NCBI GenBank assembly: GCA_965218095.1
Contig: OZ244587.1
Coordinates: forward strand, 512,001 to 576,000
Direction of reading: 5' to 3'
DNA: 64,000 nucleotides
Origin: Candidatus Poribacteria bacterium
Lineage (GTDB): Bacteria; Poribacteria; WGA-4E; PCPOR2b
The position numbers were made by a program, and so were the translations under genes. Positions 6,331-51,246 of the stretch are shown here, in pieces. The notes below the pieces were generated by a model, which saw nothing but the letters and a program-made list of their open reading frames with translations, was not told the origin of the DNA and made no database searches. How positions within the stretch are numbered: the first letter of the stretch is position 1; each line of letters opens with the position of its first letter.

Positions 6331-6420
6331 CGTGATTTCTCCCATTGTTGGCTGTAAATGTACATTGAACGGTGTGTCGGCGCCTGAAATTATAGACGAT
6401 TTCGGGGAGAAGATCCAATG

Positions 6421-6457: not shown

Positions 6458-6704
6458 AGGTAAAAAATCATGAGATTGAGATTTTTATGGATGTGAAAGG
6501 CAGATTTTGGTAATATTAGTGTCGGGTAGAAGAAATACTTGAAACGTGATGGATACTGCGTAATGAGCTTATGTAATCGACGTTTCACGCATTAATATGC
6601 CAAAATGACATTCCCAGTATCTGGCAGATCGCCCCTTGTCAGTCCGGCACAGCCTGTGAACTGTTAAAAATACGCAAAACCCCGCGGCCGTAGCAGGGCG
6701 ACGG

Positions 6705-35413: not shown

Positions 35414-35506
35414 CAGTTACCTCAAACTCTGAGCAGGAAAGGGAAAGGGCTACACCCTTTGCCAAGGTTTCGATTGAAAAAAATGGGAGCCCAGTCTGCT
35501 AATGCC

Positions 35507-35590
35507 GCATAACGTCTTCGCCGTGCCCAAACCGCGAAGTGGTTGGGCGGAGGACCGCATGGCCCAAAGCCGAAGGCACGATGGCCGCGG
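35507..35590 (-). other. attC-like site 2 (family A, R'' degenerate)
   Basis: GCATAACgtc...cccaaaccgcgaagtggttgggc...aaagccgaaggcacg. Confidence 0.6.
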
Positions 35591-35665
35591 TTCTTCGTCT
35601 ATGTCAGCGGCCTTCCCCAGGCGACTCTTGTTTCTAAGCCAGCTATCCGCTCTTTGACCCGTTGC

Positions 35666-35755
35666 GCCTAACGTTTAATGGTTTTCGAACCCGGAGCGTA
35701 GCGGAGGGTTGCCCGTAAGGGCCAAGGCAGCGCATGCCGCGCAGCGCTGTTCTTC
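35666..35755 (-). other. attC-like site 3 (family A, degenerate)
   Basis: GCCTAACgtt..ggttttcgaacccggagcgtagcggagggttgcccgtaagggcc..gctGTT. Confidence 0.6.
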
Positions 35756-35828
35756 TTTGTCTTCGAGGTGCATCGACAATGAGCACAGCGAGTTGCTCGC
35801 GACTTTGTGATCAAGCCTTCACCTCATA

Positions 35829-36161
35829 TCACCCATCAAGATATTGATTGAACCAATAGGCTGGCATGGTCGCACGTATAACCGGCCACCATGACTCCGG
35901 TACAGGGAGATATTGCCACTCGCTCGGTTCGCTCAAGTCTGTTGAGTGAGCGGGCATCACAAGCGTCCCATTTACGCCCAAGACTTCTTGAAGTGCAATG
36001 ATGGCTGCTACCACCCCGCCGCACACCCATCCCATCGTGCTCAAGGACGAGTGAACCAGCAATACCATCCCCGTTCTGACGCCAAGCGCACCGAGATTTG
36101 CCTGCAACGAGTCAATCGTGGCGGGCGTTTTCGTTTTTTGAACGACTTGACCTTCACGCAT
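35829..36161 (-). pseudogene. Truncated AAC(3)-family N-acetyltransferase
   Basis: LLVHSSLS..GWVCGG..GTLVMPAH..VPESWW; only about 110 aa, C-terminal half missing. Confidence 0.8.
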
Positions 36162-36185
36162 TTGGTTGTCCTCTTGCTTGCATTC

Positions 36186-36266
36186 GCATAACGTTTTTGC
36201 GCCCCGGAACTGCGAAGCGGTTGGACGAAGGCGCGTATGCGCCGTAGCCAGGGCACAGTGTTACAG
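36186..36266 (-). other. attC-like site 4 (family A)
   Basis: GCATAACgtttttgcgcc..aactgcgaagcggtt..gggcacagtGTTACAG, 10 nt from the next stop. Confidence 0.65.
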
Positions 36267-36275
36267 GGCGTGGAC

Positions 36276-37058
36276 TCAAATGGATCGTTCAGGAAGGAGA
36301 TGGAGTTTGTCAGATGGCAGATAATCCTTCAGCTCCTCTAGATGTCTTATTCTCTGTTCCTCCAACTGAGCGTAAAGTGGGAATTCGGTGCCTTTCGCCC
36401 TGAACTCCACCACCAGAAGCCTACGCTCCCGATGCCCTGGGGTCACCGATCCGCCGTGGACGAGTGTCCCCGACAGCAGGGAGGCCTGTCCATGTTCTGC
36501 AAAAACTGGAACGGGGGCCCCGTATTCGAGATCAGGTGGTAATTGCTTGATTTCGTTGTTGTTGTCGTCTGGGTGATCGTCCATGTAGCGCATCACCTGC
36601 AAGTGACTTCCAGGTCGGTAGTACAGCGGGCAGTTGTCGGCCTGGATATCAGTCAGCCACACGAAAAAGCTACTCGGCATCGCAACCGGAGTGCTGTCGG
36701 AAGAGGAAGTTCCACACTTAAAATCAACGTGTTCCGGTTCAAGGGTCGACTGAGCGTTGGGCCTGGGTTTCGTCACCCGCAAGGACACGAACGCCAGTTC
36801 GACGGCCTCCGCACGCAGGATTGTCTTGGAAACGTTCTCGAAGAATGGATAGTAGACAAGCCTCAATAGTTCAGGTTGCAGGACGCTGCCTGTATACCAT
36901 CCGACAGAATCCCCCCGCCCTTTGGGGATGAAATCAGCATCATCGAGTGCTTCTATGGCCTCATTCGCAGCTCGGAGCAATGCACAAGGAAAGCTTGGCG
37001 ACAAAGTGACAAGACCAGCCGTATGGAATCTCTCAATGTCGGTTTGATCAATGCTTAT
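36276..37058 (-). CDS. PhyH-like dioxygenase (start codon apparently mutated to ATA)
   Basis: EHVD, VWLTD, PGSH, LVHG; frame stays open upstream of TTG 37004 (IDQTDIERFHTAGLV) to ATA at 37058. Confidence 0.65.
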   Translation of the reverse strand: MSIDQTDIERFHTAGLVTLSPSFPCALLRAANEAIEALDDADFIPKGRGDSVGWYTGSVLQPELLRLVYYPFFENVSKTILRAEAVELAFVSLRVTKPRPNAQSTLEPEHVDFKCGTSSSDSTPVAMPSSFFVWLTDIQADNCPLYYRPGSHLQVMRYMDDHPDDNNNEIKQLPPDLEYGAPVPVFAEHGQASLLSGTLVHGGSVTPGHRERRLLVVEFRAKGTEFPLYAQLEEQRIRHLEELKDYLPSDKLHLLPERSI

Positions 37059-37208
37059 ATTTTACACCTGCTGTTACAGTGGCTGAACCGCTTCATTCAT
37101 GTCCTCTACGGTGACCACAGTGCGCGAACTGCCCCAAACAGTTGGGCGAAAATGCAACTTCACCTAGCTGTACCGGGGCCCGTTTGCCGCCGGCCAGCTA
37201 ACGGGACG

Positions 37209-37655
37209 TTATTCTTGTCTTTCCCAACCGAAACTTTCAAAAAACAGGACTTTCTGATAGTTTTCGAATGCCTGTCTAACATAAGGCACCATATTGGGCG
37301 GTAAATCGTGGACAGAATGCCAAGATAGGTCATCACACTTGTCTGGTTCTGCGTTGACGATGTCTCCGCTCCATCTGGAGGCGGCAAGGAAGAATGACAC
37401 CCGTTCATCCTCATCCTTCCTGTGCATAACCCCGACCACTTCGATATCCGAGGGCAGAATCTCAATACCGGACTCTTCCTTCGCTTCTCTGATCGCCGCT
37501 GCCTTGACCTCCTCGTTACCGTCAATGTGTCCAGCAATCACGCTGTAGTTACCATCCTCATACCCAGTATTGAAGCGCCTCAAAAGCAGGATTTCATTGT
37601 TGTTGTTCGTTAGAAAAATATGGGCTTCTGGAGTCAGCTTGAATTTGTCAGACAT
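37209..37655 (-). CDS. NUDIX hydrolase
   Basis: AGHIDGNEEVKAAAIREAKEESG, NAEPDKC. Confidence 0.9.
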   Translation of the reverse strand: MSDKFKLTPEAHIFLTNNNNEILLLRRFNTGYEDGNYSVIAGHIDGNEEVKAAAIREAKEESGIEILPSDIEVVGVMHRKDEDERVSFFLAASRWSGDIVNAEPDKCDDLSWHSVHDLPPNMVPYVRQAFENYQKVLFFESFGWERQE

Positions 37656-37737
37656 CTACCGGCCTCGTAGAAGAAGCGCTTGAGCAGGAGAAGCAAGTGT
37701 GCATCCTACATGTGATTTGTTCCCAGACTCTAGCTGG

Positions 37738-37790
37738 GGCTAACGTTTTCGCGGCTTGCCGGAGGCCAAGTGCCGAATAGCGCGACTTAC
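37738..37790 (-). other. attC half-site (R' side only)
   Basis: GGCTAACgttttcgcggcttgccggaggccaag; far arm missing. Confidence 0.5.
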
Positions 37791-37834
37791 CTGATCTGAT
37801 ACGACGATTTTGCCTCCTGGTCTCTCAAGGTTGA

Positions 37835-38478
37835 TTACACATATCCTCGAACTGCCTCCGGGTATAATATTTTGGCGCCTGAGAGCACCTCAGCGTTCGT
37901 CAACCACTCAGTTTCCTGCCGGACCCCGTCTTCTGTTATCGGAACCTTAGGCATTGAATAAAATCGGTTTTCAATCTCAATCTCATAAAGCATCACCAGT
38001 TCATGACCAAGGTCATCCTTGTAATAAAATATATTGTCGATTGTGCAGAGATACCTGAATTGAAGAAGTTCCGTACCTAATTCCTCTCGAAATTCACGCC
38101 TCAGCGCATCAGGACGCGACTCACCATATTTAACACCGCCACCCGGAAAACGAAAGAAAAACTCTCTACTGTCAGGGTGCGTAAATCGCACCGCAAGCAC
38201 CCGATCCTTGTTCCGGACCATACCGAGAACAGTCGTGCGAATATGTTTCGTCCCGGGTTTCTGAACGAATGAAATCACATAGGAATCGAAAAAGCGCTCT
38301 TGGAACTCGGTTAGCGCCTTAATTTCATCTGCCCCATATCGGTCCACATGTCGTGAGACGACTAACTTATTCTCGTTGTCATCATTGCGGACAATTAGCC
38401 CAATTACGTTGCCCTCGTAGGAATCCAGAGGTTCAAATTCGCCCAGAACGTAGGCATCGATCTCTTCTCCATCCTCAG
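37835..38478 (-). pseudogene. Inorganic-pyrophosphatase-like domain fused to NUDIX, 5' truncated
   Basis: DGEEIDAYVLG..RNDDNENKLVV..FQERFF then PGGGVKYGESRPDALRREFREELG; N-terminus replaced by attC sequence. Confidence 0.7.
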
Positions 38479-38538
38479 CACCGCGCGGCGGTAGGGCGAA
38501 GGCGCAAGTGCGCGGCAGCGAAAATCGCTGTGTTAACC
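38479..38538 (-). other. attC half-site (R'' side) fused directly into the downstream gene
   Basis: accgcgcggcggtagggcgaaggcgc..gctgtGTTAACC; GTTAACCGA matches TCGGCTAAC at 39146 with one mismatch. Confidence 0.6.
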
Positions 38539-38552
38539 GATTTGGAATTCTT

Positions 38553-39116
38553 CTATACCTTGCTCGAAAGGTTAGACTCGAAGTCAGATGCGACGATTCC
38601 GTAGATAGCCACGTCTTCAAACGAACCACACCTTTGTAGCTGCTGTCTCAGAATCCCCTCGAGTCTCATTCCCGCTTTTTCCATAACCCGACCCGAAGCG
38701 GGATTCTTGGTCATGTGACGTGCCTGAACCCGATTCAGATTGAGTTCCTCAAAGCCATACTGAACAAATGCCTGTGCAGCCTCAGTACAGTATCCGTTGT
38801 TCCAGAACGCCTTTCCGATCCAATAACCAAGTTCTCCGTACAGATGCTTTTGGTTGACATGAAGACCGATCGCGCCAATGAGTTGTCCACTAGATTCCAA
38901 AACGATGGCAAGGATGATTTCCGAGCCGTTCTGAAATGCCCCTTCATGGCTACCGATCCACTCTTCAGCCATCCTGTCCTCATACGGATGGGGCAGGTTC
39001 GGCACTGTTGCGGCCACGTCACGGTCCCCTGCCAACTTTTGGACGTTGTTCGCGTCTTCGAGTCTAAAAGGACGGAGGAACAAGCGATTTGTAGCTAATC
39101 TTGGCCAAGTTTTCAC
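38553..39116 (-). CDS. RimJ/RimL-type GNAT acetyltransferase
   Basis: LATNRLFLRPF, ELGYWIG..WNNGYCTEA, NPASGRVMEKAGM. Confidence 0.92.
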   Translation of the reverse strand: MKTWPRLATNRLFLRPFRLEDANNVQKLAGDRDVAATVPNLPHPYEDRMAEEWIGSHEGAFQNGSEIILAIVLESSGQLIGAIGLHVNQKHLYGELGYWIGKAFWNNGYCTEAAQAFVQYGFEELNLNRVQARHMTKNPASGRVMEKAGMRLEGILRQQLQRCGSFEDVAIYGIVASDFESNLSSKV

Positions 39117-39147
39117 GGGATAATGCCCTCCAGATCCTTTCCATTTC

Positions 39148-39236
39148 GGCTAACGTTTTGCTGGTTTGCGAACCCGCAAAGCGGGTTGCCGAAGGCAGAG
39201 GCATCAATGCGCCAAAGCCGAGGTACGGTGTTAGAC
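39148..39236 (-). other. attC site (family A)
   Basis: GGCTAACgttttgctggtttgcgaacccgcaaagcgggttgccgaaggc...cggtGTTAGAC. Confidence 0.75.
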
Positions 39237-39252
39237 GCTGCGGTTCTTCGTC

Positions 39253-40047
39253 CTATGTCAGCGGCCTTCCCCAGGTGACCCTTGTTTCTAATTGGAAACT
39301 GAGGAGTCCCTCATCATCGGCAAAGTCAGACAAGATATGCGATAGTTCGGCGTCGAAGGCCCTAACGTTTTCCTCCCCCATGTGTTCCTTGGACATGCTT
39401 TCTCTCGAGTGAAAAGACTCAACATAGTCTGCTAGCGGTTGAGAGAAGTCAATCGGTGTTGTCCGCTTATCTCCAATTGGGTGTAGGTACCCTCTATTCG
39501 AGATCTCTTGAACCAGATCCATCTCCTCATAGTGCTTGTTGGTGGAATACTTGCGGATCAATGAAAGCTCTGCATCATGCCAAGGCGATCCGATAGGACG
39601 ATCTCCATCAATGATTACGAGGTGCCCATCTGTCGTCAGCACTTCCTTGAATCTCGGAAAAACCACGCTCCACTCCATCCAATGAATACTTGCTCCAGCC
39701 GTCACCATATGGTAGGGCGGATACAACCGCTCCTCCTCGACGCGTCCATTGATCCACCGGAGGTTTGGGTGATCGCCGTTGATGAGCGACTTCCCCACTT
39801 GGATCATTTCTCGCGAGAAGTCAACCGCATCAACTCCGTCTACGTGATCGACGAGTGACCGTGCTATCTTTCCTGGACCACATCCGACGTCTAGAACTCT
39901 CCCCCGCGATTCTCCCAGCAAACTTAGAAGTATCCTATACGTCTCATCTGGATAGGGAGGCCGGAACTCGTACGCTTTCGCCAAACTCCGGTTCTTGAAT
40001 CGGGATGCGTGATCGTCCCAGTATTGTCGTGGCCTTGTGGTTTTCAT
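39253..40047 (-). CDS. Class I SAM-dependent methyltransferase
   Basis: RPPYP, VLDVGCGPG, AVDFSREM, SIHWM. Confidence 0.9.
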   Translation of the reverse strand: MKTTRPRQYWDDHASRFKNRSLAKAYEFRPPYPDETYRILLSLLGESRGRVLDVGCGPGKIARSLVDHVDGVDAVDFSREMIQVGKSLINGDHPNLRWINGRVEEERLYPPYHMVTAGASIHWMEWSVVFPRFKEVLTTDGHLVIIDGDRPIGSPWHDAELSLIRKYSTNKHYEEMDLVQEISNRGYLHPIGDKRTTPIDFSQPLADYVESFHSRESMSKEHMGEENVRAFDAELSHILSDFADDEGLLSFQLETRVTWGRPLT

Positions 40048-40050
40048 GTT

Positions 40051-41067
40051 TTAATCCTGCCTATTGGATAAACGCTTATATTCAAGGAATTTCTCTTGAA
40101 CCAAACCTTTGGCGAAGAGGCTCTTGCTCAGATCAAAGCCTTCCTTGATGGAGTCTGTCCGTCCAAAACAGTAGAAGGCTGCACCGGCATTCAAGCAGAC
40201 CATGTCCAGGATTGGTTCGGGAGTTTGGTTCTGTAAAAGAGATAGGAAGATTTCTGCATTCTCGTCGTTATCACCTCCTGGAATCGTGCTGTAATCCCGT
40301 TCAGTAATCCCGAAGTCCGAAGGTGTAATGTCATATTCTTTGGTCACATCTTCCGCCAGTTCAAATATATGAGTGGGTCCAGAAATTGAAATCTCATCAA
40401 TTCCAGGTTCTCCGATAACAATTAAGAATCGCGTACGTCCAAGGTGGCGGAGCACTTCTGCCAGCCGTCTGCCCATATCTACATCAATTGTTCCAAGTAT
40501 TTGATACTGAGGATTTGCAGGGTTGCATAACGGAGCGCTGAGATTAAAAATTGTTCTCCTGTCAGCTATTTGTCTGGCAGTTACAACCTTTTTCATCACC
40601 GGATGGTATGTGCGAGCAAACAGGAAACACATCTTCGTTCTGGCGAAAATGTCCTCTAACTGGTCGTCTTCAAAATCGAATTCACAGCCAAGTTTTTCGA
40701 GCAAATCAAAGCTTCCGTTCGGTCTCTTTGAACCTTTATTTCCGTGCTTGACAACTGGAACGCCACCGGCAGCCAAAATGAATGCAGCGGTTGTGGATAC
40801 GTTGAACCGATCCAAACCACTACCGCCCGTACCACATGAATCGATAGCGTTGGAGGGCAAAGAAACGAGTCTCGACTTGGCCAATAATGCTCTTGAAAAT
40901 CCGAGGATTTCATCGGCACTTTCGCCCTTTTCAGAGAGCGCTATAAGCAGTTCTGCTATCTGTCCGTCCGGTACATCATTTTCGAGTATTGCATTCAAAC
41001 ATTGTTCAGCCTCATTGGCTTGAAGAGATCCACTGGCTTTGAGTTTGTCAATGTATTTTGAAATCAT
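40051..41067 (-). CDS. trpD: Anthranilate phosphoribosyltransferase
   Basis: DSCGTGGSG..FNVST, VVKHGNK, FLFA..HP.MK, RTIFN, GIDEIS. Confidence 0.9.
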   Translation of the reverse strand: MISKYIDKLKASGSLQANEAEQCLNAILENDVPDGQIAELLIALSEKGESADEILGFSRALLAKSRLVSLPSNAIDSCGTGGSGLDRFNVSTTAAFILAAGGVPVVKHGNKGSKRPNGSFDLLEKLGCEFDFEDDQLEDIFARTKMCFLFARTYHPVMKKVVTARQIADRRTIFNLSAPLCNPANPQYQILGTIDVDMGRRLAEVLRHLGRTRFLIVIGEPGIDEISISGPTHIFELAEDVTKEYDITPSDFGITERDYSTIPGGDNDENAEIFLSLLQNQTPEPILDMVCLNAGAAFYCFGRTDSIKEGFDLSKSLFAKGLVQEKFLEYKRLSNRQD

Positions 41068-41198
41068 GGGAAGCTTTTCCTGTTTACAAAAGAGCAGGAG
41101 GAAATAGTTCTGTGAGTTATTACAAGGTGTGTTAAGGAGGTTATTCTTTTTATTTTTCTCCCCCTATGCTTTTCCGATCAATACAAAAACAGTCTTTC

Positions 41199-41305
41199 GC
41201 ATAACATTTTGCCGGTTTGCGAACCTCGCGCTTATCGAGGGGTTGCCGAAGATCAAGCCGCTGCAGGACGGTGCAGGACGGTGCAGTGGCAGCCGGGTGT
41301 TACCG
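41199..41305 (-). other. attC site (family A) with internal 10-bp tandem duplication
   Basis: GCATAACattttgccggtttgcgaacc..ggttgccgaag..(tgcaggacgg)x2..GTTACCG. Confidence 0.7.
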
Positions 41306-41340
41306 GATGTGGACGTTCGGTTTCCTAGCTACTGAGTAGT

Positions 41341-42171
41341 TCAGACCTCTCGGACCCGACGAAGCAGTACGATTGGCCGATTAATCTCACCTGTTGCCTG
41401 TGATAGTGGCTGGTTCAAGTCCCAATCGTTCCACCAACCCACAAACTCGAACTCATCCATAGCGTCGGTTAGCAGGAGAAACTCCTGTGGATACATCACC
41501 CTTTGTAGGTCTGAACTAGATATCGTCAGGGATCGGCCGCAGTCTGTCACATTTAGAGTGGCCACTTCCTGGACAATCTGCTCGACGGGATCAACGTCCC
41601 TCAATGTGACGTTCACTTCGACTACGATCCCTTCCTTCTCCATTGTCCAGGACTGGCCCGTTTCTGAGAACGCGGGTGATTGACCAAATTGTACGCACCA
41701 GTCTAGGAGGTAAAGCGCTCCAGGATCGAGTGCCCTTGCCAGCGAACTGAAATGGCTAGACAGTTCCTCTGTGTTCCGTGCATACAGGGAGCCGAGCGCG
41801 ACGAAAGCAAACTGGTATGTTGTGTCCACGTTGAAATCTATCATAGAGGCTTTGTGAAATTCTGCTGTCCATGTACTTTCAGTAACCTTCCTTTGGCCGG
41901 CGGCGAGCATGTTTTCGTTCGTATCTAGCCCATGATACTCGTAACCCCGTCGGCACAATTCCCGAAGGTGCGGACTCGGACCACAGGCTAACTCCAGCAC
42001 TCGCCTCACCGGCACCTTGGCGAACCTCTCGAACAACTGCTCGAAACACGTTACCTCGTGAGAGATGTCACGAAATGAGAATGCCAGCTCGTAGTAATCT
42101 GGATAGTCGTAGAGTGCAGCGCTTCCGCTTTCAGATCTCATTTCTAAGTCTTTCACAGATTTAAACCTCAT
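41341..42171 (-). CDS. Class I SAM-dependent methyltransferase
   Basis: VLELACG, GLDTNENML; cassette cores GTTACCGGA (41299) / TCCGGAAAC (42173) are complementary with one mismatch. Confidence 0.88.
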   Translation of the reverse strand: MRFKSVKDLEMRSESGSAALYDYPDYYELAFSFRDISHEVTCFEQLFERFAKVPVRRVLELACGPSPHLRELCRRGYEYHGLDTNENMLAAGQRKVTESTWTAEFHKASMIDFNVDTTYQFAFVALGSLYARNTEELSSHFSSLARALDPGALYLLDWCVQFGQSPAFSETGQSWTMEKEGIVVEVNVTLRDVDPVEQIVQEVATLNVTDCGRSLTISSSDLQRVMYPQEFLLLTDAMDEFEFVGWWNDWDLNQPLSQATGEINRPIVLLRRVREV

Positions 42172-42174
42172 TTC

Positions 42175-42293
42175 CGGAAACGTTATGCCGGTTTACGAAC
42201 CTCAAGCCTGTCGACGCGTGCCGAGAGGTGCCGAAGGCCAAGCGTCGTAGGAGCGCCGCATGAATTGCTGTGAATATGACGTGGATGTTATGC
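42175..42293 (-). other. attC site (family A, long)
   Basis: CGGAAACgttatgccggtttacgaacc..gccgaaggccaag..GTTATGC. Confidence 0.65.
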
Positions 42294-42365
42294 GACTGTG
42301 TTCGCTGCCGGTACCACATCAGTTATTGCAGAACTGACATTGCGACATTTTCGTTAATCCTGCTT

Positions 42366-42824
42366 TTAGGAATCCCTCTTGCGTAACCTCTGGTCAAGCT
42401 CCCAAAGAGCTGTTCGATTGCCTTCAAATCTTAGTAGTTCCACAGCCCGAGCGTACGTGAGCCAACGATATTCCGTGTGCTCATTGGAGATGATCAGATC
42501 TTTCTTCTGAACTTCAACCCCAAAGCAATACTCCGGAATCACATAGAGATCGCGACTCCAGTGTGGAACATTCTGGAAAGCCGTCACTGGAACGGAATTA
42601 ACAGTCTGCAATTCGAGGTAATGAGCATTCTCGGATATTCCCGCCTCCTCGAAGGATTCCCTCCGCGCGGCTTGGAGTGGGCACTCATCATCCTCTCCTC
42701 CACCGGCAATCCCTTGCCAAAACTCCGTTTGCTCGTCGCTTCTCAGAAACATAGCATATTGGACGTAGCTCTCTGTCCCCACATGGTAGGGGAACACAAG
42801 AACCTGGAAGGGTGCGCGAGCCAT
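42366..42824 (-). CDS. NUDIX pyrophosphatase
   Basis: RAPFQVLV, WQGIAGGGEDDE..AARRESFEEAG, SNEHTEYRW. Confidence 0.9.
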   Translation of the reverse strand: MARAPFQVLVFPYHVGTESYVQYAMFLRSDEQTEFWQGIAGGGEDDECPLQAARRESFEEAGISENAHYLELQTVNSVPVTAFQNVPHWSRDLYVIPEYCFGVEVQKKDLIISNEHTEYRWLTYARAVELLRFEGNRTALWELDQRLRKRDS

Positions 42825-42928
42825 TTGGGCCTCTTACCGTATATAGGATTAAGTCTCAGCTTTTGAGACTTTCCAGCTCCTCCTGCCTAAACTGAGGCTC
42901 ACTGGCGGCCACCATAAAGTGTACGAAA

Positions 42929-43547
42929 TCATTCTTGCGTTTTCCAAATTCCTGATAACCGTTCAGAAAGGGGAAATTCGCCGCGATCCAACGCACAATC
43001 TAATTCTTGAAATCCCTTCAGCAGTCTTTGACGTTGTTCCCGAGCAAAAGGGTTACAAATCTGGCTTTCCCAATAAGTGTCTGGAGCATTGTTCTTCAAA
43101 TGCTCAATCAATTTCATAAGATTTCTGGCGGCTGGGGATGATTGAAACCTCGCTCTGTCATAATCGTCCATCAAAAAATCCACTCGCGTGAAGACCGAAC
43201 CACCTGCATTTGAGAGCAGACATTTTCTCTTGCGCAACAATCCGAGCGGAACACATATCAAATGCCCAGGTTCTTGGATTCACATGTTCATTGACCTTTG
43301 AAATGACTTCATCCAGTGCGTGAATGGGCACGGCAATAAAAATGTATTGAGCGAAAGAAACAGTTTCTTCAAAATCGTTAACGGGTTTGGCCCCGATTGC
43401 TTCGATGTCTCCGGCAACGTTGCGAGTGGATGAAATGTGGACGTCAAAGTGTTCGCAGAAAATTTCCGCGAATCTTTGACCTATCCGCCCAAATCCGATG
43501 ACGAGCATTCGAGAATTGTCCATAGTCTGTTCGATTCCTTGTTTCAA
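42929..43547 (-). pseudogene. Prephenate dehydrogenase (TyrA)-like gene, frameshifted
   Basis: VIGFGRIG, IFIAVPI, FDMCS; C-terminal part (YWESQICNPFA) in a second frame. Confidence 0.6.
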
Positions 43548-43699
43548 TTTGAGGTTTGAAAGGATTCAAGTGAATTTCCCTGCTCTGAAAGAGATCTCTT
43601 GCACTTCGGGCAACAAAAAAATCCGAAGGCATTGACAATTCTTTTTGGTGTTGGGGGGCGAAGGGAGGAGATTTTTCGCCCCATTTTAAGTTTTTGATT

Positions 43700-44523
43700 T
43701 AGGTTCTGTTGACATTTCAAGGGAGCCATATAAGAGTGGAGATAAAGCTGAGAAATCCAAAATAACGGACAGCTAGCTTCTCAAACCGAGAGAAGATACG
43801 ACGATACCATTTTATCTTGTTGATGAAATATTCAACCTGATGTCTCTCTTTGTATAAGTGTTTGTCATACGTTCTTTGGTCAACACGATGACTTTTGGGC
43901 GGTATCACCGCAATCGCTCCACTCGCCTTGATAACCGCGATAAAAGCGTCCGAATCGTACCCCTTGTCTCCAATCACATATTCACTGTTATATCCGATTA
44001 TCAACCCTTCCGCCTCAGTTATGTCATGTCTCTGACCGGGGGTCAGATGAGTTCTTAGGGGATTGCCTAGTCCGTCAACTGTGATGTGAATTTTTGTACT
44101 GAAACCGCCCCGAGACCGACCTAATGCTTGGTTTTCAGTCCCACCGTTTTTTTTAAGGCGCCCGCCGCACACGGGTGAGCGCGGCAGATTGTACTGTCAA
44201 CAATAAGCGACTCGATATCGGGGTCAGAGGCGAAGTGGGGGTGCATCTGTGTGAAGATACCTTTGTCACACCATCGAGCAAACCGCTTGTAGCGGGTGTT
44301 CCATTTGCCATAGGTGTCTGGTAGAAGTCTCCATTGAGCCCCACTACGAGTCACCCACAGAACTGCTTCGACGAAGCGGCGTGTAGCAGCTTCGTCGCCA
44401 ACATAGATGGTGGGACAGCTTAGAAGAAACCGGTATATCTTATTCCATTGTTCATCAGGTAAGGTTATTGGCATCATTCTTCTATTATGCCACAACCTTA
44501 TACTCAAATGTCAACAGAACCTA
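43700..44523 (-). mobile_element. IS5-family (IS427-group-like) element, two ORFs with A8 slippery site
   Basis: IRs TAGGTTCTGTTGACATTT / AAATGTCAACAGAACCTA; ORFs 44121..44507 and 43717..44172; GRSRGGFSTKIH, GDKGYD. Confidence 0.9.
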
Positions 44524-44593
44524 GCACCAAAGGTTATTCTAATTTTTATTGTGGCTTTCGTGTAATTGTGATACAATAGTTTCATTATTAGTA

Positions 44594-45534
44594 ACCCAAG
44601 TTGCTAGTAATTGAAAATCCATGGGTTTTCCATTAAAGTAGAGGTAATCCAAACCATAATACCTCAAAGGAGAAACCCATGGACATCCAAATTGCAACCA
44701 TTTTCTATCTCTGTGACAAGCTCTTAGAAGCACTCAACTCAAAACCACACCCACAAACGCAGATGTCTGATGCCGAAGTGATGACCACCGGCATCGTCGC
44801 TGCGTTGTTCTTCGGGGCAAACTTGCAAACCACTTGTGACTTTCTAAAGACTCATGGCTATATACCCAAGATGCTTTCAAAAAGTCGATTCAACCGACGA
44901 CTTCATCGAATTAAACCGATGTTCACCACATTGTTCAAAATCTTGGGACGAAGCTATGTGCAACTTAATCAACAGAAAATCTATGCACTGGATACCATAC
45001 CAATTGCTGTTTGTTCCGCATTCGTCGGTCAAAAATCTACACCGATAAGGCATATCGAGGCTATCAAGCGTCCAAACGTCGGTATTTCTATGGCTTGAAA
45101 GTTCATCTGCTAGTGACTGCGAGTCGACACCCTGTTGAATTTTTTGTGACCCCAGCCAGTACAGGGGACGTTGAAGGGTTACAGTGGTTTGACTTCGACT
45201 TGCCACCGGGCTATGGTGACAAAGCATACAATAATTATGAGATAGAAGATATTGTTACATCAGTCGGAGTCGAATTAAAGCCAGTACGCAAGAAGAATTC
45301 CAAGCGGCTGTATCCACCATGGGAGACCTACTTGGCTAATTACCATCGTAAGTCTGTTGAGACGGCTGGCAGTTTGATTAACAAACTGCTTCCACGTTCA
45401 ATCCATGCAGTAACGCAACACGGATTTGAATTGAAAGTGGTCTTGTTTGTATTGGCTAGCAGTATCAATCAGCTCTGAGTTCACTCACATATTCAGTTCA
45501 CTCACATATTCGATGAATAGGTCGCAACTTGGGT
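44594..45534 (+). mobile_element. IS982-family element with frameshifted transposase
   Basis: IRs ACCCAAGTTGC / GCAACTTGGGT; 8-bp TSD TATTAGTA; SRFNRR, YFYGLKVH, GDKAY. Confidence 0.9.
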
Positions 45535-45650
45535 TATTAGTAAGACTTACGCACTTCAGATAGTAGTTGCCCGACTCATGGGACATCAGGCGCCGGTCTC
45601 GTTCGCCCGATACTCCATCGGGACTGACGAGACCGAGCACCCACAATTCT

Positions 45651-45678
45651 GTAGGGAACGCAGATCTGCGTTCACTAC
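45651..45678. repeat. GTAG-type REP palindrome
   Basis: GTAGGGAACGCAGATCTGCGTTCACTAC. Confidence 0.6.
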
Positions 45679-45726
45679 GAAACCGTGAATCCACGATGTT
45701 GTAAGGATTAGAATAACGCAAGTTGC

Positions 45727-46514
45727 TAGGTTCTGTTGACATTTCATCATAACCAGATAATCGCAGCAACGAAACTCAGAAACCCCAAATAGCGACCCGC
45801 CAACTTATCAAAACAACTGAAGATACGCCTATAGTGCTTGATTTTGTTGATGAAGCATTCCACCCGATGTCTCTCTCGGTACAGATGCGTATCATAGTCT
45901 CGTGACTCACGGCGGTTGATACGGGGACGAATCACTGGCTTTGCACCCATACGGGTTATCAACTGCACCAATGAATCCGCGTCATACGCTGAGTCGGCTA
46001 TCACATACTCACTGCTATACCCTTCTGCACAAGTCATGGCGTGGCGTTGTCTAGCCGTCAGCGCAAAACGTAATGGATTGCCTAAGCCATCAACCGTGAT
46101 GTGAATTTTGGTTGAAAATCCACCCACACTACGTCCGAGTGCCTGTGAGGCTTGACCGCCACTTGTCTTCAAAGCCCCTGCAGCACAGGGGTGAGCGCGG
46201 CAGATGGTACTGTCACCATATCTGGGTCGTTGACAAAGTGTTGATGCAGCCGTTGGAAGATGCCTTTATCGCACCAGCGAGCGAATCGTTTATAGACGCT
46301 GTTCCAACTGCCGTACTCTTTTGGTAGGAGTCGCCATTGACTACCACTACGAGTTATCCAAAGCACTGCTTGGACAAAACGTTTTAAGTTCGCTTGTTGT
46401 CCGGTGTAGACATCGGAATAGGTTTGCAGGAATGCTGCTATTTTTGACCATTGATTATCGGATAAGGTAAGTGTTGACATATCGTTATTATGCCATAAAT
46501 GTCAACACGTCCTA
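45727..46514 (-). mobile_element. Second, diverged and degraded IS5/IS427-group element
   Basis: Left IR TAGGTTCTGTTGACATTT, right AAATGTCAACACGTCCTA; ORFs 46169..46480 and 45747..46172 with small deletions. Confidence 0.85.
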
Positions 46515-46587
46515 ACATTAGTCATACGTTTCAAGATTGACCCCGGCGCCAAAACGACAGGTTTGGCATGGGTCGAAAGGAATGAAA

Positions 46588-47787
46588 ATGAGCATATATC
46601 AATCACCGTCGGTGGCGGATTCTGAGCCGATCTCTAAGTCTTACCGCGCCCCGGCCTTTGCTGACGCTAAGCCCAAGCTTGCGGCGCCCGGAGCCACGCC
46701 AGAACGGTTGGCCCACTTGAAGGAGCATGGTTTTGTTATCATCACCGACTTTGTCGGCAATCCGTGGATTCCCATTCTCCGGGAGGCGGGCCGCCGCGTT
46801 ACGGAGGCGTGCGCACCCGAGCAGGACTACAGCAAGATCGACTGCTCGAAGGGCTACGTGCACCGCGCGGGCGGCGATGAGCCGTGGGCAATCCGGGGCC
46901 TCATCCATCCCGCTTTCGGGGAGCCCAGCTTTGCCGAGTTCCACGGTTCTCCAGATTTCCTAAACTTCGTCCGCGCTTGGTGTCACAGGCTCGAGCCTGA
47001 GGACCTGACGATGGGTAACCTGCTACTGTGGTGCAATCCCCGGCATTACGAGAATAAGCTCGGTTGGCACCGAGACGTGACGTGGTGGGGCACCGGGAAG
47101 AGCTACTTCGCGCAGCAGGAGGTCCGAGGGGAGGGCCCTGAGGCGTATTCCGAGGAAGTTGAAAGGATCCGCTGGAAAGAAATCCGCGAAAATAATGCGA
47201 AGTCTCTCACGGAGCGGAACGGCGTGAGCATGTTCTTGGCACTCACCAACGACGAATGCCACGAGCTCGTGCCGGGTAGCCACGATCGGTGGCGCACGCC
47301 GTTTGAGCATGACGTGCTCCTGCCGAAAGCGATGAAGGACCAAGGTGTACCGTACACACCGAGTTGGAACGGCGAGGACCCGTTGCCAAACCAGGTCGCG
47401 ATCCGGCTCAAGGCTGGGGAAGCCCTCATCCGCAATGGCGCCACGATTCACACGGGGCACACCGTCCCCGAGCGCGAGCGCAACACGTTGTCAATCGGTT
47501 GGTCAAAGTGGTCAGGCGAGTTCACTGGGGAGCCGTCGGTAGCGGACGTGAGACACGCGTGGCAACTGGATCCCGCTGTGCGCGAAGCTTTGCCACACGA
47601 GTGGATGAAGACAGCGTGGGACCGTTGGACGGAAACACAGAAGCTGGGAGATACGCTCGAGGACCGGTACACGGGGTTTGACATCAAGTACATCAAAGCA
47701 GGGGAGGTCGTCGGTTGGCGCGGTGAGTTGGAGCGTCAAGCTGCGGCGGCAGGCGACGCTTGGGAACCCTTCCAAACCGCGGTATGA
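46588..47787 (+). CDS. PhyH-like dioxygenase
   Basis: LKEHGFVII, WHRD, LVPGSH, TIHTG; start uncertain (46582/46588). Confidence 0.75.
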   Translation: MSIYQSPSVADSEPISKSYRAPAFADAKPKLAAPGATPERLAHLKEHGFVIITDFVGNPWIPILREAGRRVTEACAPEQDYSKIDCSKGYVHRAGGDEPWAIRGLIHPAFGEPSFAEFHGSPDFLNFVRAWCHRLEPEDLTMGNLLLWCNPRHYENKLGWHRDVTWWGTGKSYFAQQEVRGEGPEAYSEEVERIRWKEIRENNAKSLTERNGVSMFLALTNDECHELVPGSHDRWRTPFEHDVLLPKAMKDQGVPYTPSWNGEDPLPNQVAIRLKAGEALIRNGATIHTGHTVPERERNTLSIGWSKWSGEFTGEPSVADVRHAWQLDPAVREALPHEWMKTAWDRWTETQKLGDTLEDRYTGFDIKYIKAGEVVGWRGELERQAAAAGDAWEPFQTAV

Positions 47788-48099
47788 AGGTCGGCTACTC
47801 ACTGAACCGTAGGCGTAATTCCCACTGACCATAAACCCACCTGCCCGTGTGTAAGGACATCATGGTAACAACGCCCGAAGAACTGGCCCGTCAACGCAAT
47901 CAGGTCGGCACGGTGCTCCGTTCCGCCCAACAAGAAGGGAAGACACTCTATGGACACGACTGATCGGTTCGCACGGAAATCTCTACGTCAGCGAAGTTAT
48001 TCCGGAACGGCGGTTTCAGAAGTTCGCGCGAGTTTAATTATTGACTATACTTTCTGACTTTTGCCACACTTTCTAAAGGGTGGAAGGAGTAGCTCACGT

Positions 48100-48742
48100 A
48101 TGTCGAAAAAAAAGGTCGAAGGCATCACCAAGATAGCTGTGAGCAGCTCCAAGTCGCTCGCGGAAGAGTGCACAATCGACGACGATTCTTGCCGGAGCGA
48201 ATAGTTCCGGGAAATCGAGCATCATGCAACCGCTATTGATGCTGAAACAGACGCTGGAGGCGACGTATGACCCGGGACCGCTGTTGATTGATGGGCCGAA
48301 CGTTCAGTTTACTTTGGCAGAGCAATTTTTGTCCAAGTTAATCAGGGGAAAAGGGACAGATCGTTTTCAGATTCGGATTGAGACTCGTGAGTCTGATTTT
48401 TCTTTCTCGGTGACGACGACTTTCAGAAAGGGGCCGAGCGGAATTGAAATTGCCAAAATGAAGAGGTCAAAAAGAAAATTAGAGGCAGCCCCACTATTTC
48501 CCCCTAAGCATATTACCTTATCTCCTGAGATGCGGCCTGAAGAAATCAAGTCGCTGGCTAAGCAACGCTTGATTCCCATAGATTCTGATGTCGTGGGACG
48601 TTCACGATGTTTTTCGCGTTTTGAATCTCAAGATGGTTATATGCGCTCCAACCGTACTCCTAACCTTGAGTCCCATATTTTCAATAGTATTCACCTCCCC
48701 GGATTACGAGGCGATCCAGAGCGTAGCTACAAATTCAGTTAG
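48100..48742 (+). pseudogene. Degraded ABC/AAA-ATPase (AAA_15/21-like) N-terminus
   Basis: Upstream frame gives TILAGANSSGKSSI then MQPLLMLKQTL; frameshifted and truncated. Confidence 0.6.
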
Positions 48743-49007
48743 CAAACGGGCGTCCTTTTCAAATTCGTCTGCCTCTTTTCCGAGTGCTCACAGAATTTCA
48801 GTCGGGTATTGAATGGTTCGTGTGTCCATTTTCGTGTTCCTCCGTTAATTTGGCAATTCCACAACTGTAGAGAGCAACCATTGTTTTTAACGTTGGATAT
48901 TCATAAAAGACCTCGCCCCCAACAATTTCGCCAATAGTGAAGTGATAACGCTTTTTAGATAAAAAAATAGTAACCTAGCAAAGATCCGTTGGTTGGATAA
49001 TCGCCGG

Positions 49008-49046
49008 AAAAAGCCCGGTGAGAATTTTTCTCACCGGGCTTTTTTT
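49008..49046. terminator. Bidirectional rho-independent terminator
   Basis: AAAAA GCCCGGTGAGA atttt TCTCACCGGGC TTTTTTT. Confidence 0.85.
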
Positions 49047-49225
49047 CTGCCCATCACCCTTCCAATGTCTGTCACAAAATAGCCATAAAATCTCTGTCAA
49101 TTTGACATGAGATTCTCACAGCATCGTGACATCTAAAAGATATACTTATGCCCAGTCACTGAACACATTCGGATGAATTTGAAAAAGGAGGATTCCGACG
49201 GTTTACCCTCCACGGGTTCGGTAAT

Positions 49226-49783
49226 GTGACCAATATGACCGGCGAAGCACTCGAAGCGGAAAGTGACGCCGCCAGTGTTACCCGGTTTCTCAGTCCAGAA
49301 GATGGCGCGTGGGAGCCGATATGGACGGACTTGACCCGCCGCTCCGTGGTGGAAGTCGGTTATGTGCTGGGGCTTCAAGTTCGAGATGAAGTGAGGCAGT
49401 TGGTCAGGACGCTCCACCACAAAATCTCACAAGCGGATATCCGTCGAGCCTTTGTTGAAGTCTATTTGACGCAAGAGTTGTTGCGTCCGACACAAACGAT
49501 GTTGTTCGCCAACTATCCGAATCCATTCAACCCTGAGACGTGGTTGCCCTATCAGTTGGCTGAGAGCTCGGACGTTCGAATCCGTATTTACGATGCGACG
49601 GGACGTTTAGTCCGCGGCTTGGACCTCGGGTTCCAGACCGAAGGATATTATCTGGACAAATCCCGCTCCGCCTATTGGAATGGTCGGAATGACCTCGGTG
49701 AGCAGATGGCAAGCGGCGTCTACTTCTACCAACTTATTGCAGGTGACTACATTGCGAACCGCAAGCTGGTTATCCTAAAATAG
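49226..49783 (+). CDS. FlgD-Ig/T9SS-like C-terminal domain protein (possibly a fragment)
   Basis: LFANYPNPFNPETWLPYQL..AYWNGRNDLGEQMASGVYFY..RKLVILK. Confidence 0.7.
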   Translation: MTNMTGEALEAESDAASVTRFLSPEDGAWEPIWTDLTRRSVVEVGYVLGLQVRDEVRQLVRTLHHKISQADIRRAFVEVYLTQELLRPTQTMLFANYPNPFNPETWLPYQLAESSDVRIRIYDATGRLVRGLDLGFQTEGYYLDKSRSAYWNGRNDLGEQMASGVYFYQLIAGDYIANRKLVILK

Positions 49784-49800
49784 AACTCAGATATGGTGAA

Positions 49801-50748
49801 TCAAACGAGTGCCCTGAGTGACGCGCGCCGGATATCGTCTAGCTCCTGAGCACTGAAGACACCGGCTTGGTAGAGATTTCGATACTCTTCAGAGACGCTT
49901 TGACCGAATATCATCGGATCATCTGTATTAATAGTCACCGGTACACCATTATCAAACAGGACACGGATGGGATGAGAAGCCAGGTCTGGCACGGCATCCA
50001 ACATCACGTTGCTCGTTGGGCACACATTCAACTGAATCTGATTCTCGGAGAGCCACCGCATGACTTCGACCGATTCTGAGGCGCCAATGCCGTGTTGGAC
50101 TTCGTCCAATTCTAGGACTTCGACGGTCCGCTTTATCTCCGCCGCACCCCCAAACTCTCCAACATGTGCTTTCAGTTTCATTCCCGTAGCTTTTGCCTTC
50201 GCATACAAAGGCTTCACAGATTCGGGGGTACACGCTTCTTGACGGGAATACAGATCAATTGACTGAAACAGACCGAATTCTATCGCTTGGTGAGCCAACA
50301 TCATCAGTTTTGGATTGTCGGCACTCGTTCGGGAAAAGCCAAGCTCTGGACGCAGATCAATCTGTGTCCGATATCGGTCAACTAACGCCTCAATAAACAC
50401 CCTAAGCCCGGCTAAGCCATCTGGATAGTATGCAGTTATCCGAATGTCAAAACTCGTCTCAAACATAACAACGCCATCCTGTATTGCATCGTGCACCGCT
50501 GACGCTGCGATGAACTCAACACCTTTGCAGTCTTTTATGTGAGGGGCTAAGACCTTGGCTGCGTACTCGTGCATTCCCTCAAGTCCACTCATCTTGGAAG
50601 GAGCTCGCATCAGTGAGTATCCCAACCAGCGTTCCATATTCTCTAATCGTGTGCCGAAGTACGAATGACAGTGAACGTCTACTTTGGCTGCCCTCCTGAT
50701 AGCAGTCAGGTCATCGGTTGATAGTGCTTCCACAAAATCAATGCACAT
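49801..50748 (-). CDS. Adenosine deaminase family protein
   Basis: KVDVHCH, KAHVGEF, VQHGI, VCPTSN, INTDD. Confidence 0.9.
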   Translation of the reverse strand: MCIDFVEALSTDDLTAIRRAAKVDVHCHSYFGTRLENMERWLGYSLMRAPSKMSGLEGMHEYAAKVLAPHIKDCKGVEFIAASAVHDAIQDGVVMFETSFDIRITAYYPDGLAGLRVFIEALVDRYRTQIDLRPELGFSRTSADNPKLMMLAHQAIEFGLFQSIDLYSRQEACTPESVKPLYAKAKATGMKLKAHVGEFGGAAEIKRTVEVLELDEVQHGIGASESVEVMRWLSENQIQLNVCPTSNVMLDAVPDLASHPIRVLFDNGVPVTINTDDPMIFGQSVSEEYRNLYQAGVFSAQELDDIRRASLRALV

Positions 50749-50772
50749 TTAGTTGTCCTGTTGCTTGCATTC

Positions 50773-50916
50773 GCATAACGTTTATGTGTCTACGACGGCT
50801 TCTGTCCCGAAGGGCTGGCGCGTCATTTGCCTCTTTCTGCAAATGACGTGACAGAGGAAGCTGTGCCCGAAAGTCCGAGGGAGTGAAGCGACCGAAGCGT
50901 AGACACGGTGTTAACA
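50773..50916 (-). other. attC site (family B, 144 bp)
   Basis: GCATAACgtttatGTGTCTACG...CGTAGACACggtGTTAACA with internal hairpins (cgtcatttgc..gcaaatgacg). Confidence 0.85.
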
Positions 50917-51098
50917 GATGGCATGCGCCGGGGTGGTCAAGGGGGCGGCCCAGGACGGCCCGCGTAGGGGTGCTTTTTCTGTTTTTGACTCCAGGTTTTT
51001 TAAATAGGATACCCACCCACCGACCTATAGCAGTCAGTTTAGAAATCAGCCAGAAAAAGGGCGGGAACGCCATCACTTTCTTTGTTTTTTCACTTGCA

Positions 51099-51212
51099 GT
51101 TTAACGGCCTGAGGTTCAGCGGCGCGCGATCTCACCTGCCGAAGCCAAAAGGTGCGCCAATTAGCAACCACGTAAGCGAAGGGAGCGTGTCCGCTCCAAC
51201 CCCTTGTTCGGG
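51099..51212 (-). other. attC site (family C)
   Basis: GTTTAACggcctgaggttcagcgg...ccgctccaaccccttGTTCGGG. Confidence 0.8.
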
Positions 51213-51246
51213 GCAATGCCGTTGACTCCCAGGCAATTATCTTCCG

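What the first reader, a model, noticed from the sequence alone, without database searches (positions are those of the whole stretch)
36159..50783. Two unrelated cassette genes share the same leader from R' to the exact ATG
Seen: 36159-36196 (catttggttgtcctcttgcttgcattcgcataacgttt) and 50746-50783 (catttagttgtcctgttgcttgcattcgcataacgttt) match at 36/38 nt. The identity stops precisely at the start codons of an AAC(3)-family gene and an adenosine deaminase, and the attC bodies upstream belong to different families. Known: how new cassettes are made is unresolved. Inference: a reusable R'+RBS leader was joined to different ORFs at the ATG, a possible footprint of cassette genesis or ORF swapping.
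Basis: partly seen in the sequence, partly recalled or inferred. Interest (0 to 1): 0.7.

Follow-up and report, generated by a model that had tools for sequence, protein, structure and literature searches.

The report
One cassette leader copied onto another
A short ribosome-binding leader that belongs to an acetyltransferase gene in a decaying integron array has been copied once in front of an unrelated deaminase gene, which looks like a single recombination accident and not a general way of making new gene cassettes.

Summary
Window 36159-36196 and 50746-50783 match at 36/38 on the minus strand. They are the only two copies in the 6.35-Mb genome, and identity ends at the two ATGs. Short-read contigs from three studies bridge both junctions, so it is not an assembly chimera.

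The leader is not a reusable module:
- It is absent from 158 other genomes of the order.
- Phylum-wide hits are at control level.
- Exact scans of public genomes and metagenomes gave only chance hits inside a Rossellomorea gene.

The leader is the native upstream flank of the AAC(3)-like gene. Orthologues in three genomes of a sister genus carry a homologous flank. Locus 1 also sits in a conserved gene order, PPase-NUDIX-PhyH-AAC(3). None of 11 adenosine-deaminase relatives has the leader.

The AAC(3) ORF is only a 110-aa N-terminal stump. The deaminase has no attC of its own.

Best reading: a one-off secondary copy of the AAC(3) cassette's 5' end fused to the deaminase start codon. This is akin to known fused cassettes and to the qacE 5'UTR remnants. 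Low to moderate interest.

The parts
36162..36196 (-). Leader copy 1 (ancestral): R' box GTTATGC (36186-36192) plus a 24-base 5'UTR with Shine-Dalgarno GAGGA 7 bases before the ATG
   Evidence: Homologous to the upstream flank of AAC(3) orthologues in G016, G017 and G018.
35829..36161 (-). Truncated AAC(3)-like ORF, 110 aa. Homology to full-length orthologues (about 274 aa) ends at residue 102, window 35857, at ...CTACTG|GTTCAAT
   Evidence: Pfam Antibiotic_NAT 1-67/232. NCBIfam AAC_3 47.6 bits against a cut-off of 270. blastn 267/323 to G017. The C-terminal part is absent from the genome.
35761..35856 (-). 96-base filler between the AAC(3) break and the next attC. Unique in the genome, with no relative in the family
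35666..35760 (-). attC-like site #10, the site that closes the stump cassette; R' is GTTAGGC
   Evidence: MFE fold is not significant.
36186..36270 (-). attC-like site #9, belonging to the preceding PhyH cassette. R'' CTGTAAC, L'' GCCCTGG, L' CCGGGGC, R' GTTATGC
   Evidence: The L-box pairing was read by eye. MFE z = +0.53.
36276..38530 (-). Gene block collinear with genome G018: PhyH (36276-37004), NUDIX (37209-37655), and a PPase-like part (38246-38530) of ORF 37835-38629
   Evidence: Pfam; tblastn; tblastx 71-82% aa, collinear
50749..50783 (-). Leader copy 2 (secondary): same R' box and 5'UTR with 2 substitutions; Shine-Dalgarno reads AGGA
   Evidence: Bridged by contigs from 3 studies.
49801..50748 (-). 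Full-length adenosine-deaminase-family ORF, 315 aa. DNA homology to relatives runs only from the ATG to 3-8 bases past the stop
   Evidence: Pfam A_deaminase 116.5 bits. NF006856 2-314/316, but 259.8 bits against a cut-off of 510. PDB adenosine deaminases at E 9e-23. Homology boundaries.
50773..50915 (-). attC site #2 upstream of leader 2: long hairpin with stem GTGTCTACG/CGTAGACAC next to the R boxes
   Evidence: DNA fold -29.5 kcal/mol, z = -4.0, 0 of 200 shuffles as good
49226..49783 (+). Convergent ORF with a type IX secretion C-terminal sorting domain. It ends 17 bases from the deaminase stop and occupies the place where the deaminase's own attC would lie
   Evidence: Pfam FlgD_ig and Por_Secre_tail; sequence
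43717..46480 (.). Cluster of IS4/IS5-type transposase genes that splits the array between the two loci
   Evidence: Pfam DDE_Tnp_1 and DUF4096. Contig depth here is 100-fold above the flanks.

Best explanation
Both loci lie in a co-oriented, integrase-less and IS-riddled array of integron cassettes on the minus strand.

The 32 bases from the crossover point in the R' box (G|TTATGC) to the ATG are the AAC(3)-like gene's own 5' end. This part is shown: the same flank, diverged about as much as the coding DNA, precedes AAC(3) orthologues in a sister genus, and locus 1 sits in the orthologous gene order.

The copy in front of the deaminase is secondary and arose inside this lineage. This is also shown: it is 94% identical to the local AAC(3) leader, it is absent from all deaminase relatives examined, and it is already fixed in strains about 2% apart.

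The route is inferred, in two steps:
1. The AAC(3) cassette, or its 5' part, was duplicated by integrase-mediated re-insertion behind another attC. That would explain why the left edge of the copy is the R' crossover box.
2. An illegitimate deletion then ran from the AAC(3) start codon to the deaminase start codon, probably at AAATG/ATG microhomology. It removed the AAC(3) ORF, its attC and the deaminase's own leader. Selection kept only a junction that left the deaminase with a working Shine-Dalgarno at 7-8 bases.

The leader acts simply as a translation-initiation region. It is a one-off fusion, not a templating device.
For: Uniqueness:
- There are 2 copies only.
- 0 of 158 other genomes of the order carry it.
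- Phylum scan: 11 genomes have a hit at 2-3 mismatches, against 13 hits for the reversed control.
- Public exact scans gave only hits inside a Rossellomorea gene.

Direction of copying:
- G017 AAC(3) DNA aligns at 83% (267/323), starting 18 bases upstream of the ATG.
- In alignment A3, G017 matches 20 of 25 leader columns, and G018 has AACGT-ATGC at the R' position.
- Leader-like flanks occur in 3 of 29 AAC(3) orthologues examined and in 0 of 11 deaminase relatives.

Ancestral position: PPase, NUDIX, PhyH and AAC(3) are collinear with G018 at 82, 79, 71 and 74.5% aa.

Junctions:
- The deaminase is homologous to its relatives from codon 1 (MCID against MYID, MCVD, MSID), and its DNA homology starts at the ATG.
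- One relative reads ...gtgaaATG, which would give AAATG microhomology.

Not an artefact: contigs of X1, X3 and X4 (3 studies) cover 35300-36922/37358 with 0-1 differences, and 50083-50979, 50357-50952 and 50357-50983 with 0, 11 and 12 differences.

Precedent: fused cassettes, and the qacE 5'UTR segment found in front of several unrelated cassettes (PMC8876359 passages; PMC4670013 abstract).
Against: - No intermediate was found, such as attC#2-leader-full AAC(3)-attC-deaminase. The two-step route is inference only.
- The C-terminal two thirds of AAC(3) are nowhere in the genome, so a second AAC(3) copy has left no other trace.
- No intact integron integrase is present: the best TIGR02249 match is 216 bits with 7 stops, against a cut-off of 265. 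The integrase step must therefore be old or have acted in trans.
- A deletion ending exactly on both start codons is improbable without selection.
- The deaminase's ancestral upstream sequence in this lineage is unknown, so the microhomology is assumed from one relative at 83% aa identity.
- Only one attC (#2) folds significantly better than shuffles. Six others have z between -1.0 and +0.5.
- The public scans were exact-match only, so diverged leader copies in metagenomes would have been missed.
Confidence: 0.55

Rival explanations
1. Short-patch copy-choice or gene conversion. The deaminase cassette already began with the generic boundary AAACGTTATGCGAA. A replication template switch, for instance at a stalled attC hairpin, copied about 24 bases of the AAC(3) leader and switched back at AAATG. 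No second AAC(3) cassette and no kilobase deletion are needed.
For: - The left 14 bases are generic. GTTATGCGAA occurs 12 times in the genome and 3 times in the window, and AACGTTATGCGAAT occurs at a third locus.
- In my reading of the intergenic sequences printed, four cassette starts in the window share GTTAKSCGAA-like starts.
- The source lies 14.6 kb away, in the same orientation and the same array.
- No trace of a second AAC(3) copy exists.
Against: - The right-hand homology would be only 3-5 bases.
- Nothing shows what the deaminase's earlier leader was.
- Relatives with an R'-like box upstream have about 75-base leaders with no resemblance.
- The mechanism is not demonstrated for integron arrays in any paper I read.
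Confidence: 0.25
2. One reading: a reusable R'+RBS leader that a template mechanism joins to different ORFs at the ATG, that is, a footprint of cassette genesis.
For: The junction is exact at two native start codons, and the left edge lies at the crossover box. How cassettes arise is still treated as open in the passages I read of PMC8876359 and PMC8352920.
Against: - There are only two copies anywhere searched.
- Homologous leaders elsewhere precede only AAC(3).
- The leader has diverged with its gene, as an ordinary flank does.
- A genome-wide look for other cassette-start pairs sharing a leader gave 26 pairs, mostly other repeat families. I saw no recurrent pattern of this kind, but the scan was noisy.
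Confidence: 0.07
3. Reverse direction, or chance likeness of ribosome-binding regions: the leader is native to the deaminase, or both leaders converged on a good Shine-Dalgarno region.
For: One deaminase relative (G020) has CAGGAGAAGTGAAATG upstream, and blastn extends the alignment 12 bases into it. The deaminase copy's G-to-C change makes CAGGA, as in that relative.
Against: That likeness needs a gap and covers only the Shine-Dalgarno. 0 of 11 deaminase relatives share the 24-base core. The AAC(3) flank homology is positional, ungapped over 18 bases and backed by conserved gene order. 36/38 identity cannot arise by convergence.
Confidence: 0.03
4. Assembly chimera at one of the two loci.
For: None found. 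The region is rich in IS elements and repeats.
Against: Contigs from runs of three different studies bridge both junctions, two of them as about 2% diverged alleles. One caveat: one of these runs may be the source of the assembly, and contigs are not single molecules.
Confidence: 0.01

Closest known systems
qacE 5'UTR remnant (101-bp 'pseudo-cassette') fused upstream of aac(6')-Ib-cr, aacA29a/b and aadA16 in class 1 integrons (review PMC8876359, passages of section 2.3)
   Same: The 5' part of one cassette, starting at its boundary, is found in front of unrelated cassette ORFs and serves their expression.
   Different: That remnant is 101 bp, carries a promoter, recurs in front of several genes on mobile integrons, and is followed by the next cassette's own start region. 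Here the remnant is 32 bases and carries only a Shine-Dalgarno; no promoter was predicted. It occurs once, in a chromosomal integrase-less array, and abuts the ATG itself.
Fused gene cassettes formed by partial or total loss of an attC, such as blaGES-1/aacA4 and blaOXA-10/aadA1 (PMC4670013 abstract; PMC8876359 section 2.4.4 passages)
   Same: A deletion that starts in one cassette and ends in the next makes a permanent hybrid unit. The downstream gene then uses upstream initiation signals.
   Different: Known fusions keep both ORFs, or fuse them. Here the whole first ORF would have been lost and only its leader kept.
CALIN, a cluster of attC sites lacking an integron integrase (term recalled from Cury et al. 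2016; paper not read here)
   Same: Eleven co-oriented attC-like sites lie between 34.8 and 51.3 kb, and no integrase gene is in the window.
   Different: The array is interrupted by IS elements and plus-strand genes, several attC sites are degenerate, and part of its gene order is conserved across genera.
ORF-11 / ORF-18 translational coupling at attI1 (PMC8876359 passages)
   Same: In both copies the ATG inside the R' box opens an 11-12-codon upstream ORF that stops just after the main ATG (read).
   Different: There is no Shine-Dalgarno for it. The frame is not conserved: in G018 the upstream ATG is in frame with the gene. Both genes have their own Shine-Dalgarno. It is probably incidental.

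Membership tests
Integron cassette array (attC sites) | Inverted core sites R'' (RYYYAAC) and R' (GTTRRRY) bounding a 55-150-base element directly after an ORF | tested here: met
   Eleven such elements on the minus strand between 34826 and 51252, read. Several R' boxes are degenerate (GTTTCCG, GTTCTGT).
Integron cassette array (attC sites) | The single strand folds into a long hairpin with paired R and L boxes | tested here: inconclusive
   attC#2 has z = -4.0. Six others have z from -1.0 to +0.5. The consensus fold of 7 sites gives only a local hairpin, -0.6 kcal/mol. L-box pairing for #9 and #6 was seen by eye only. No attC covariance model was available.
Integron cassette array (attC sites) | Adjacent intI gene, attI and Pc (complete integron) | tested here: not met
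   TIGR02249 has no match in the window. Genome-wide there are only fragments and a 216-bit pseudogene with 7 stops about 1 Mb away. At best this is a CALIN.
Integron cassette array (attC sites) | Each of the two genes is a complete cassette (ORF plus its own attC) | tested here: not met
   The AAC(3) ORF is truncated at residue 102 before attC#10. The deaminase is followed after 17 bases by a convergent ORF and no attC.
AAC(3) aminoglycoside N-acetyltransferase | Full Antibiotic_NAT domain, about 260-290 aa, score over the curated cut-off | tested here: not met
   Only profile positions 1-67 of 232 are present. NCBIfam AAC_3 scores 47.6 bits against 270. Orthologues are 253-278 aa. Substrate was not tested for any of them.
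Adenosine deaminase (PF00962) | Domain match over the curated cut-off and full length | tested here: met
   PF00962 scores 116.5 bits against 27. NF006856 aligns 2-314/316 but reaches only 259.8 bits against the 510-bit equivalog cut-off. The family is met; the substrate is open. HxH, HxGE and TDDP-like motifs were seen by eye against a recalled consensus.
Fused cassette / 5'UTR pseudo-cassette | The 5' remnant of one cassette, from its boundary, lies directly before an unrelated ORF with no attC between them | tested here: met
Fused cassette / 5'UTR pseudo-cassette | The remnant supplies a promoter (as for qacE) | tested here: not met
   No minus-strand sigma-70-like site in 49600-51400. The remnant is 32 bases.

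The most novel reading that the evidence does not exclude
The conserved boundary at attC ends (AAACGTTATGCGAA) may act as a landing pad for replication template switching. That would let a working translation-initiation leader be transplanted in front of another promoterless ORF in the same array. Together with the AAC(3) gene broken at a GTT and followed by an attC, the locus would then record how genes at the edge of an array are turned into cassettes.
Probability: 0.08. Interest if true: 0.65.

Novelty: new member of a known kind. Interest (0 to 1): 0.3.

Why it matters

What remains is a clean natural example, in an uncultured lineage, of a cassette's 5' end being reused by an unrelated gene with the joint exactly at the start codon. 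The donor, the direction and the ancestral locus can all be identified by comparison across genera.

Such cases show that ordinary illegitimate recombination plus selection for translation can remodel cassettes in old, integrase-less arrays. The conserved PPase-NUDIX-PhyH-AAC(3) order also gives a rare fixed frame for dating events in an array.

Tried and rejected
- My own attC finders were too noisy. I mapped sites by eye instead.
- blastn of the 96-base filler, attC#9, #10 and #2 against the genome found no second copies.
- DNA searches of attC#2 with its upstream cassette, and of the filler with attC#10/#11, in 28 family genomes gave 0 of 28. No relative could therefore show a pre-fusion state.
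- A promoter scan upstream of the deaminase found nothing on the minus strand.
- A genome-wide scan for other cassette-start pairs sharing a leader was swamped by IS ends and other repeat families. After filtering, 26 pairs remained and I did not study them one by one, so recurrence is neither shown nor excluded.
- I did not inspect the 11 phylum hits at 2-3 mismatches for neighbouring genes. I rejected them only because the reversed control gave 13.
- Of the 4 public exact hits I read 2.
- Contigs of RNA run X10 cover the deaminase bins at depth 1.5-2 and locus 1 at 0-0.9. That shows neither expression nor silence.
- Joints between attC regions in metagenome contigs (tables 5 and 5c) are single contigs with short sides. 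I treat them as hints only.
- I did not use the protein database searches, structure prediction or complex prediction; the question did not need them.
- Supplements were not consulted and bear on no claim here.

Full report
**What is there.** Both sites lie on the minus strand. Read in gene sense they are AAAC GTTATGC GAATGCAAGCAA[G/C]AGGACAAC[C/T]AA ATG, 36 of 38 identical.
- The pattern occurs twice in the window, against 0 in 100 shuffles.
- It occurs twice in the whole 6.35-Mb single-contig genome, even allowing 7 substitutions in 32 bases. With blastn-short the next hits are 15 bases or shorter.
- blastn between the two neighbourhoods gives one 41-base block and nothing else.
- Identity ends at the ATG. 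The codons after it differ.

**The two genes.**
- The ORF at 35829-36161 has 110 residues and matches only the first 67 of 232 positions of Pfam Antibiotic_NAT. It falls far below every NCBIfam AAC(3) cut-off. It is a stump.
- The ORF at 49801-50748 (315 aa) is a full-length member of the adenosine deaminase family.
- Both start at their families' native first residue.

**The setting.** From about 34.8 to 51.3 kb the minus strand carries small unrelated genes: three NUDIX, a GNAT, methyltransferases, PhyH, APH and a TrpD-like gene.
- I read eleven elements bounded by RYYYAAC...GTTRRRY.
- One of them (attC#2, 50773-50915) folds as a strong hairpin, z = -4.0. The others do not beat shuffles, and their alignment shows a shared sequence family but no clear consensus hairpin.
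- IS4/IS5 transposase genes interrupt the array.
- There is no integron integrase in the window. The genome holds only fragments and a pseudogene with seven stops.
- This is a decaying, integrase-less cassette array.
- In such arrays the attC upstream of a gene belongs to the preceding cassette.
- The stump is closed by attC#10 after a unique 96-base filler.
- The deaminase has no attC. A convergent ORF with a type IX secretion sorting domain ends 17 bases from its stop.

**Not an artefact.** Logan contigs of runs from three studies were laid on 35300-51500.
- Locus 1 is covered without a break by X1 and X4 (35300-37358) and X3 (35300-36922), with 0-1 differences.
- Locus 2 is covered by X1 (50083-50979, 0 differences), X3 (50357-50952, 11 differences) and X4 (50357-50983, 12 differences).
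- The leader-deaminase joint is therefore present in strains about 2% apart.
- One run may be the assembly's own source, and contigs are not single molecules.

**Is the leader reused?** No.
- With up to 3 mismatches it is in 1 of 159 genomes of the order, the window's own.
- The 24-base core at up to 3 mismatches hits 11 further genomes of 176 in the phylum, all at 2-3 mismatches. The reversed control pattern hits 13.
- Exact scans of about 186,000 species genomes and of JGI metagenomes returned 3 and 1 stretches. The two I read are the same coding sequence of a Rossellomorea-type membrane protein, without the R' box or the ATG.
- These scans were exact, so diverged copies could have been missed.

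**Whose leader is it?** The AAC(3)-like gene is common in the order: 112 of 159 genomes. It is full length there, and homology to the stump always ends at residue 102-103.
- I read the upstream flanks of 29 orthologues (13, 16).
- Three of them, all in sister genus g5, resemble the leader.
- G017 DNA aligns at 83% (267/323), beginning 18 bases before the ATG. In alignment A3 it matches 20 of 25 leader columns.
- G018 has AACGT-ATGC where the window has AACGTTATGC.
- In contrast, none of 11 deaminase relatives (up to 85% aa identity) has the leader. Their DNA homology to the window's gene runs only from the ATG to 3-8 bases past the stop.
- Locus 1 also lies in the ancestral place. PPase-like, NUDIX, PhyH and AAC(3) are collinear between the window and G018, at 82, 79, 71 and 74.5% aa.
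- The leader is therefore the AAC(3) gene's own flank. The deaminase copy, 94% identical to the local version, is a later copy made inside this lineage.

**How.**
- The left edge of the copy coincides with the integrase crossover box. However, the first 14 bases are a generic boundary, found at a third locus and in part at twelve.
- The right edge is the ATG. One deaminase relative reads ...gtgaaATG, which would give AAATG microhomology.
- I favour integrase-mediated re-insertion of the AAC(3) cassette behind attC#2, followed by a deletion from one start codon to the other. Selection for a translatable deaminase would explain the precision.
- A short-patch template switch between the generic boundary and AAATG is a serious rival.
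- No intermediate was found, and the C-terminal part of AAC(3) is absent from the genome, so the route stays inferred.
- No GTT lies at the ATG joint, so an integrase secondary-site event there is unlikely (read).

**Comparison with the literature.**
- A review describes a 101-bp piece of the qacE cassette's 5'UTR fused in front of several unrelated cassettes. It also describes fused cassettes made by loss of an attC (PMC8876359, passages found; PMC4670013, abstract in the listing).
- The present case is of that kind, but it is shorter, promoter-less, single, and joined at the ATG itself.
- The passages I read of PMC8352920 speak of a 'native mechanism of cassette genesis' without defining it. 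I did not read these papers in full.

**Verdict.** It is a new member of a known kind. Interest 0.3.

Noticed in passing
L057 (G018) 1530-6558 against L058 (G017) 6056-6070: Two genomes of genus g5 differ by a 5-kb block of six ORFs (NUDIX, PhyH-like, HIT-like, ankyrin, one unknown, methyltransferase). The block lies exactly between the PPase-like gene and the R'-like box before AAC(3). In G017 and G016 the PPase ORF runs straight into the leader. This looks like cassette gain or loss at that box, yet these genomes have no integron integrase (best TIGR02249 match 41 bits).
   Followed up: partly
window 35857 (minus strand): AAC(3) homology stops at ...GCCTACTG|GTTCAAT, a GTT. It is followed by 96 unique bases and attC#10. 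This resembles insertion of a small ORF-less cassette at an integrase secondary site inside the gene. The rest of the gene is absent from the genome.
   Followed up: partly
G000 C1:1536854-1537808, 2745024-2745251, 1055430-1055824 (outside the window): There are three sets of integron-integrase remnants: 216 bits with 7 stops, 128 bits for the C-terminal end only, and 109 bits for the N-terminal end only. None is intact.
   Followed up: no
family f4 genomes, e.g. G133 C1:1214071 / 1248695, G137 C1:3341339 / 3376311, G050 C1:1680208 / 1699973: In many genomes of a sister family the AAC(3)-like gene and one to three copies of the deaminase gene lie 20-55 kb apart on the same contig. The two genes have been neighbours for a long time. 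Whether that region is a cassette array was not checked.
   Followed up: no
window 36248/41207, 39194/41360, 50944/39163 (metagenome contigs): Single contigs in runs X1 and X3 join different attC regions of the array. This suggests that cassette order differs between strains in nature.
   Followed up: no
L030-L040 (genus g7), about 170 bases upstream of AAC(3): Orthologues in genus g7 have a near-consensus promoter (TTGACT, 17 bases, TATAAT) and a conserved leader of about 100 bases, followed by a conserved downstream gene. The gene looks like an ordinary chromosomal gene there. The conserved leader might be regulatory.
   Followed up: no
window 35601-35665 and 50916-51098: Two very short ORF-less cassettes lie between consecutive attC sites.
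   Followed up: no
window 37835-38629: A single 264-aa ORF joins a PPase-like N-terminal part (78% to the separate G017 protein) to a NUDIX domain. This may be another fusion made within the array.
   Followed up: partly
window 36162-36192 and 50749-50779: The ATG inside the R' box opens an 11- or 12-codon upstream ORF that ends at a TGA overlapping codons 2-4 of the main gene in both copies. The frame is not conserved in G018.
   Followed up: partly
window 32683-34746: An APH-family ORF (32683-33456) matches only profile positions 55-230 and abuts an IS transposase gene (33405-34433). It may be a gene split by the IS. The presumed N-terminal piece (34474-34746) had no Pfam match.
   Followed up: no
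genome-wide, e.g. C1:4006279, 594685, 5567403: Other dispersed repeat families begin with AAGTTCAGTTG... or CGACGTTAACTGTCCAGTTCCGATG.... The genome also holds dozens of copies of at least two IS types.
   Followed up: no
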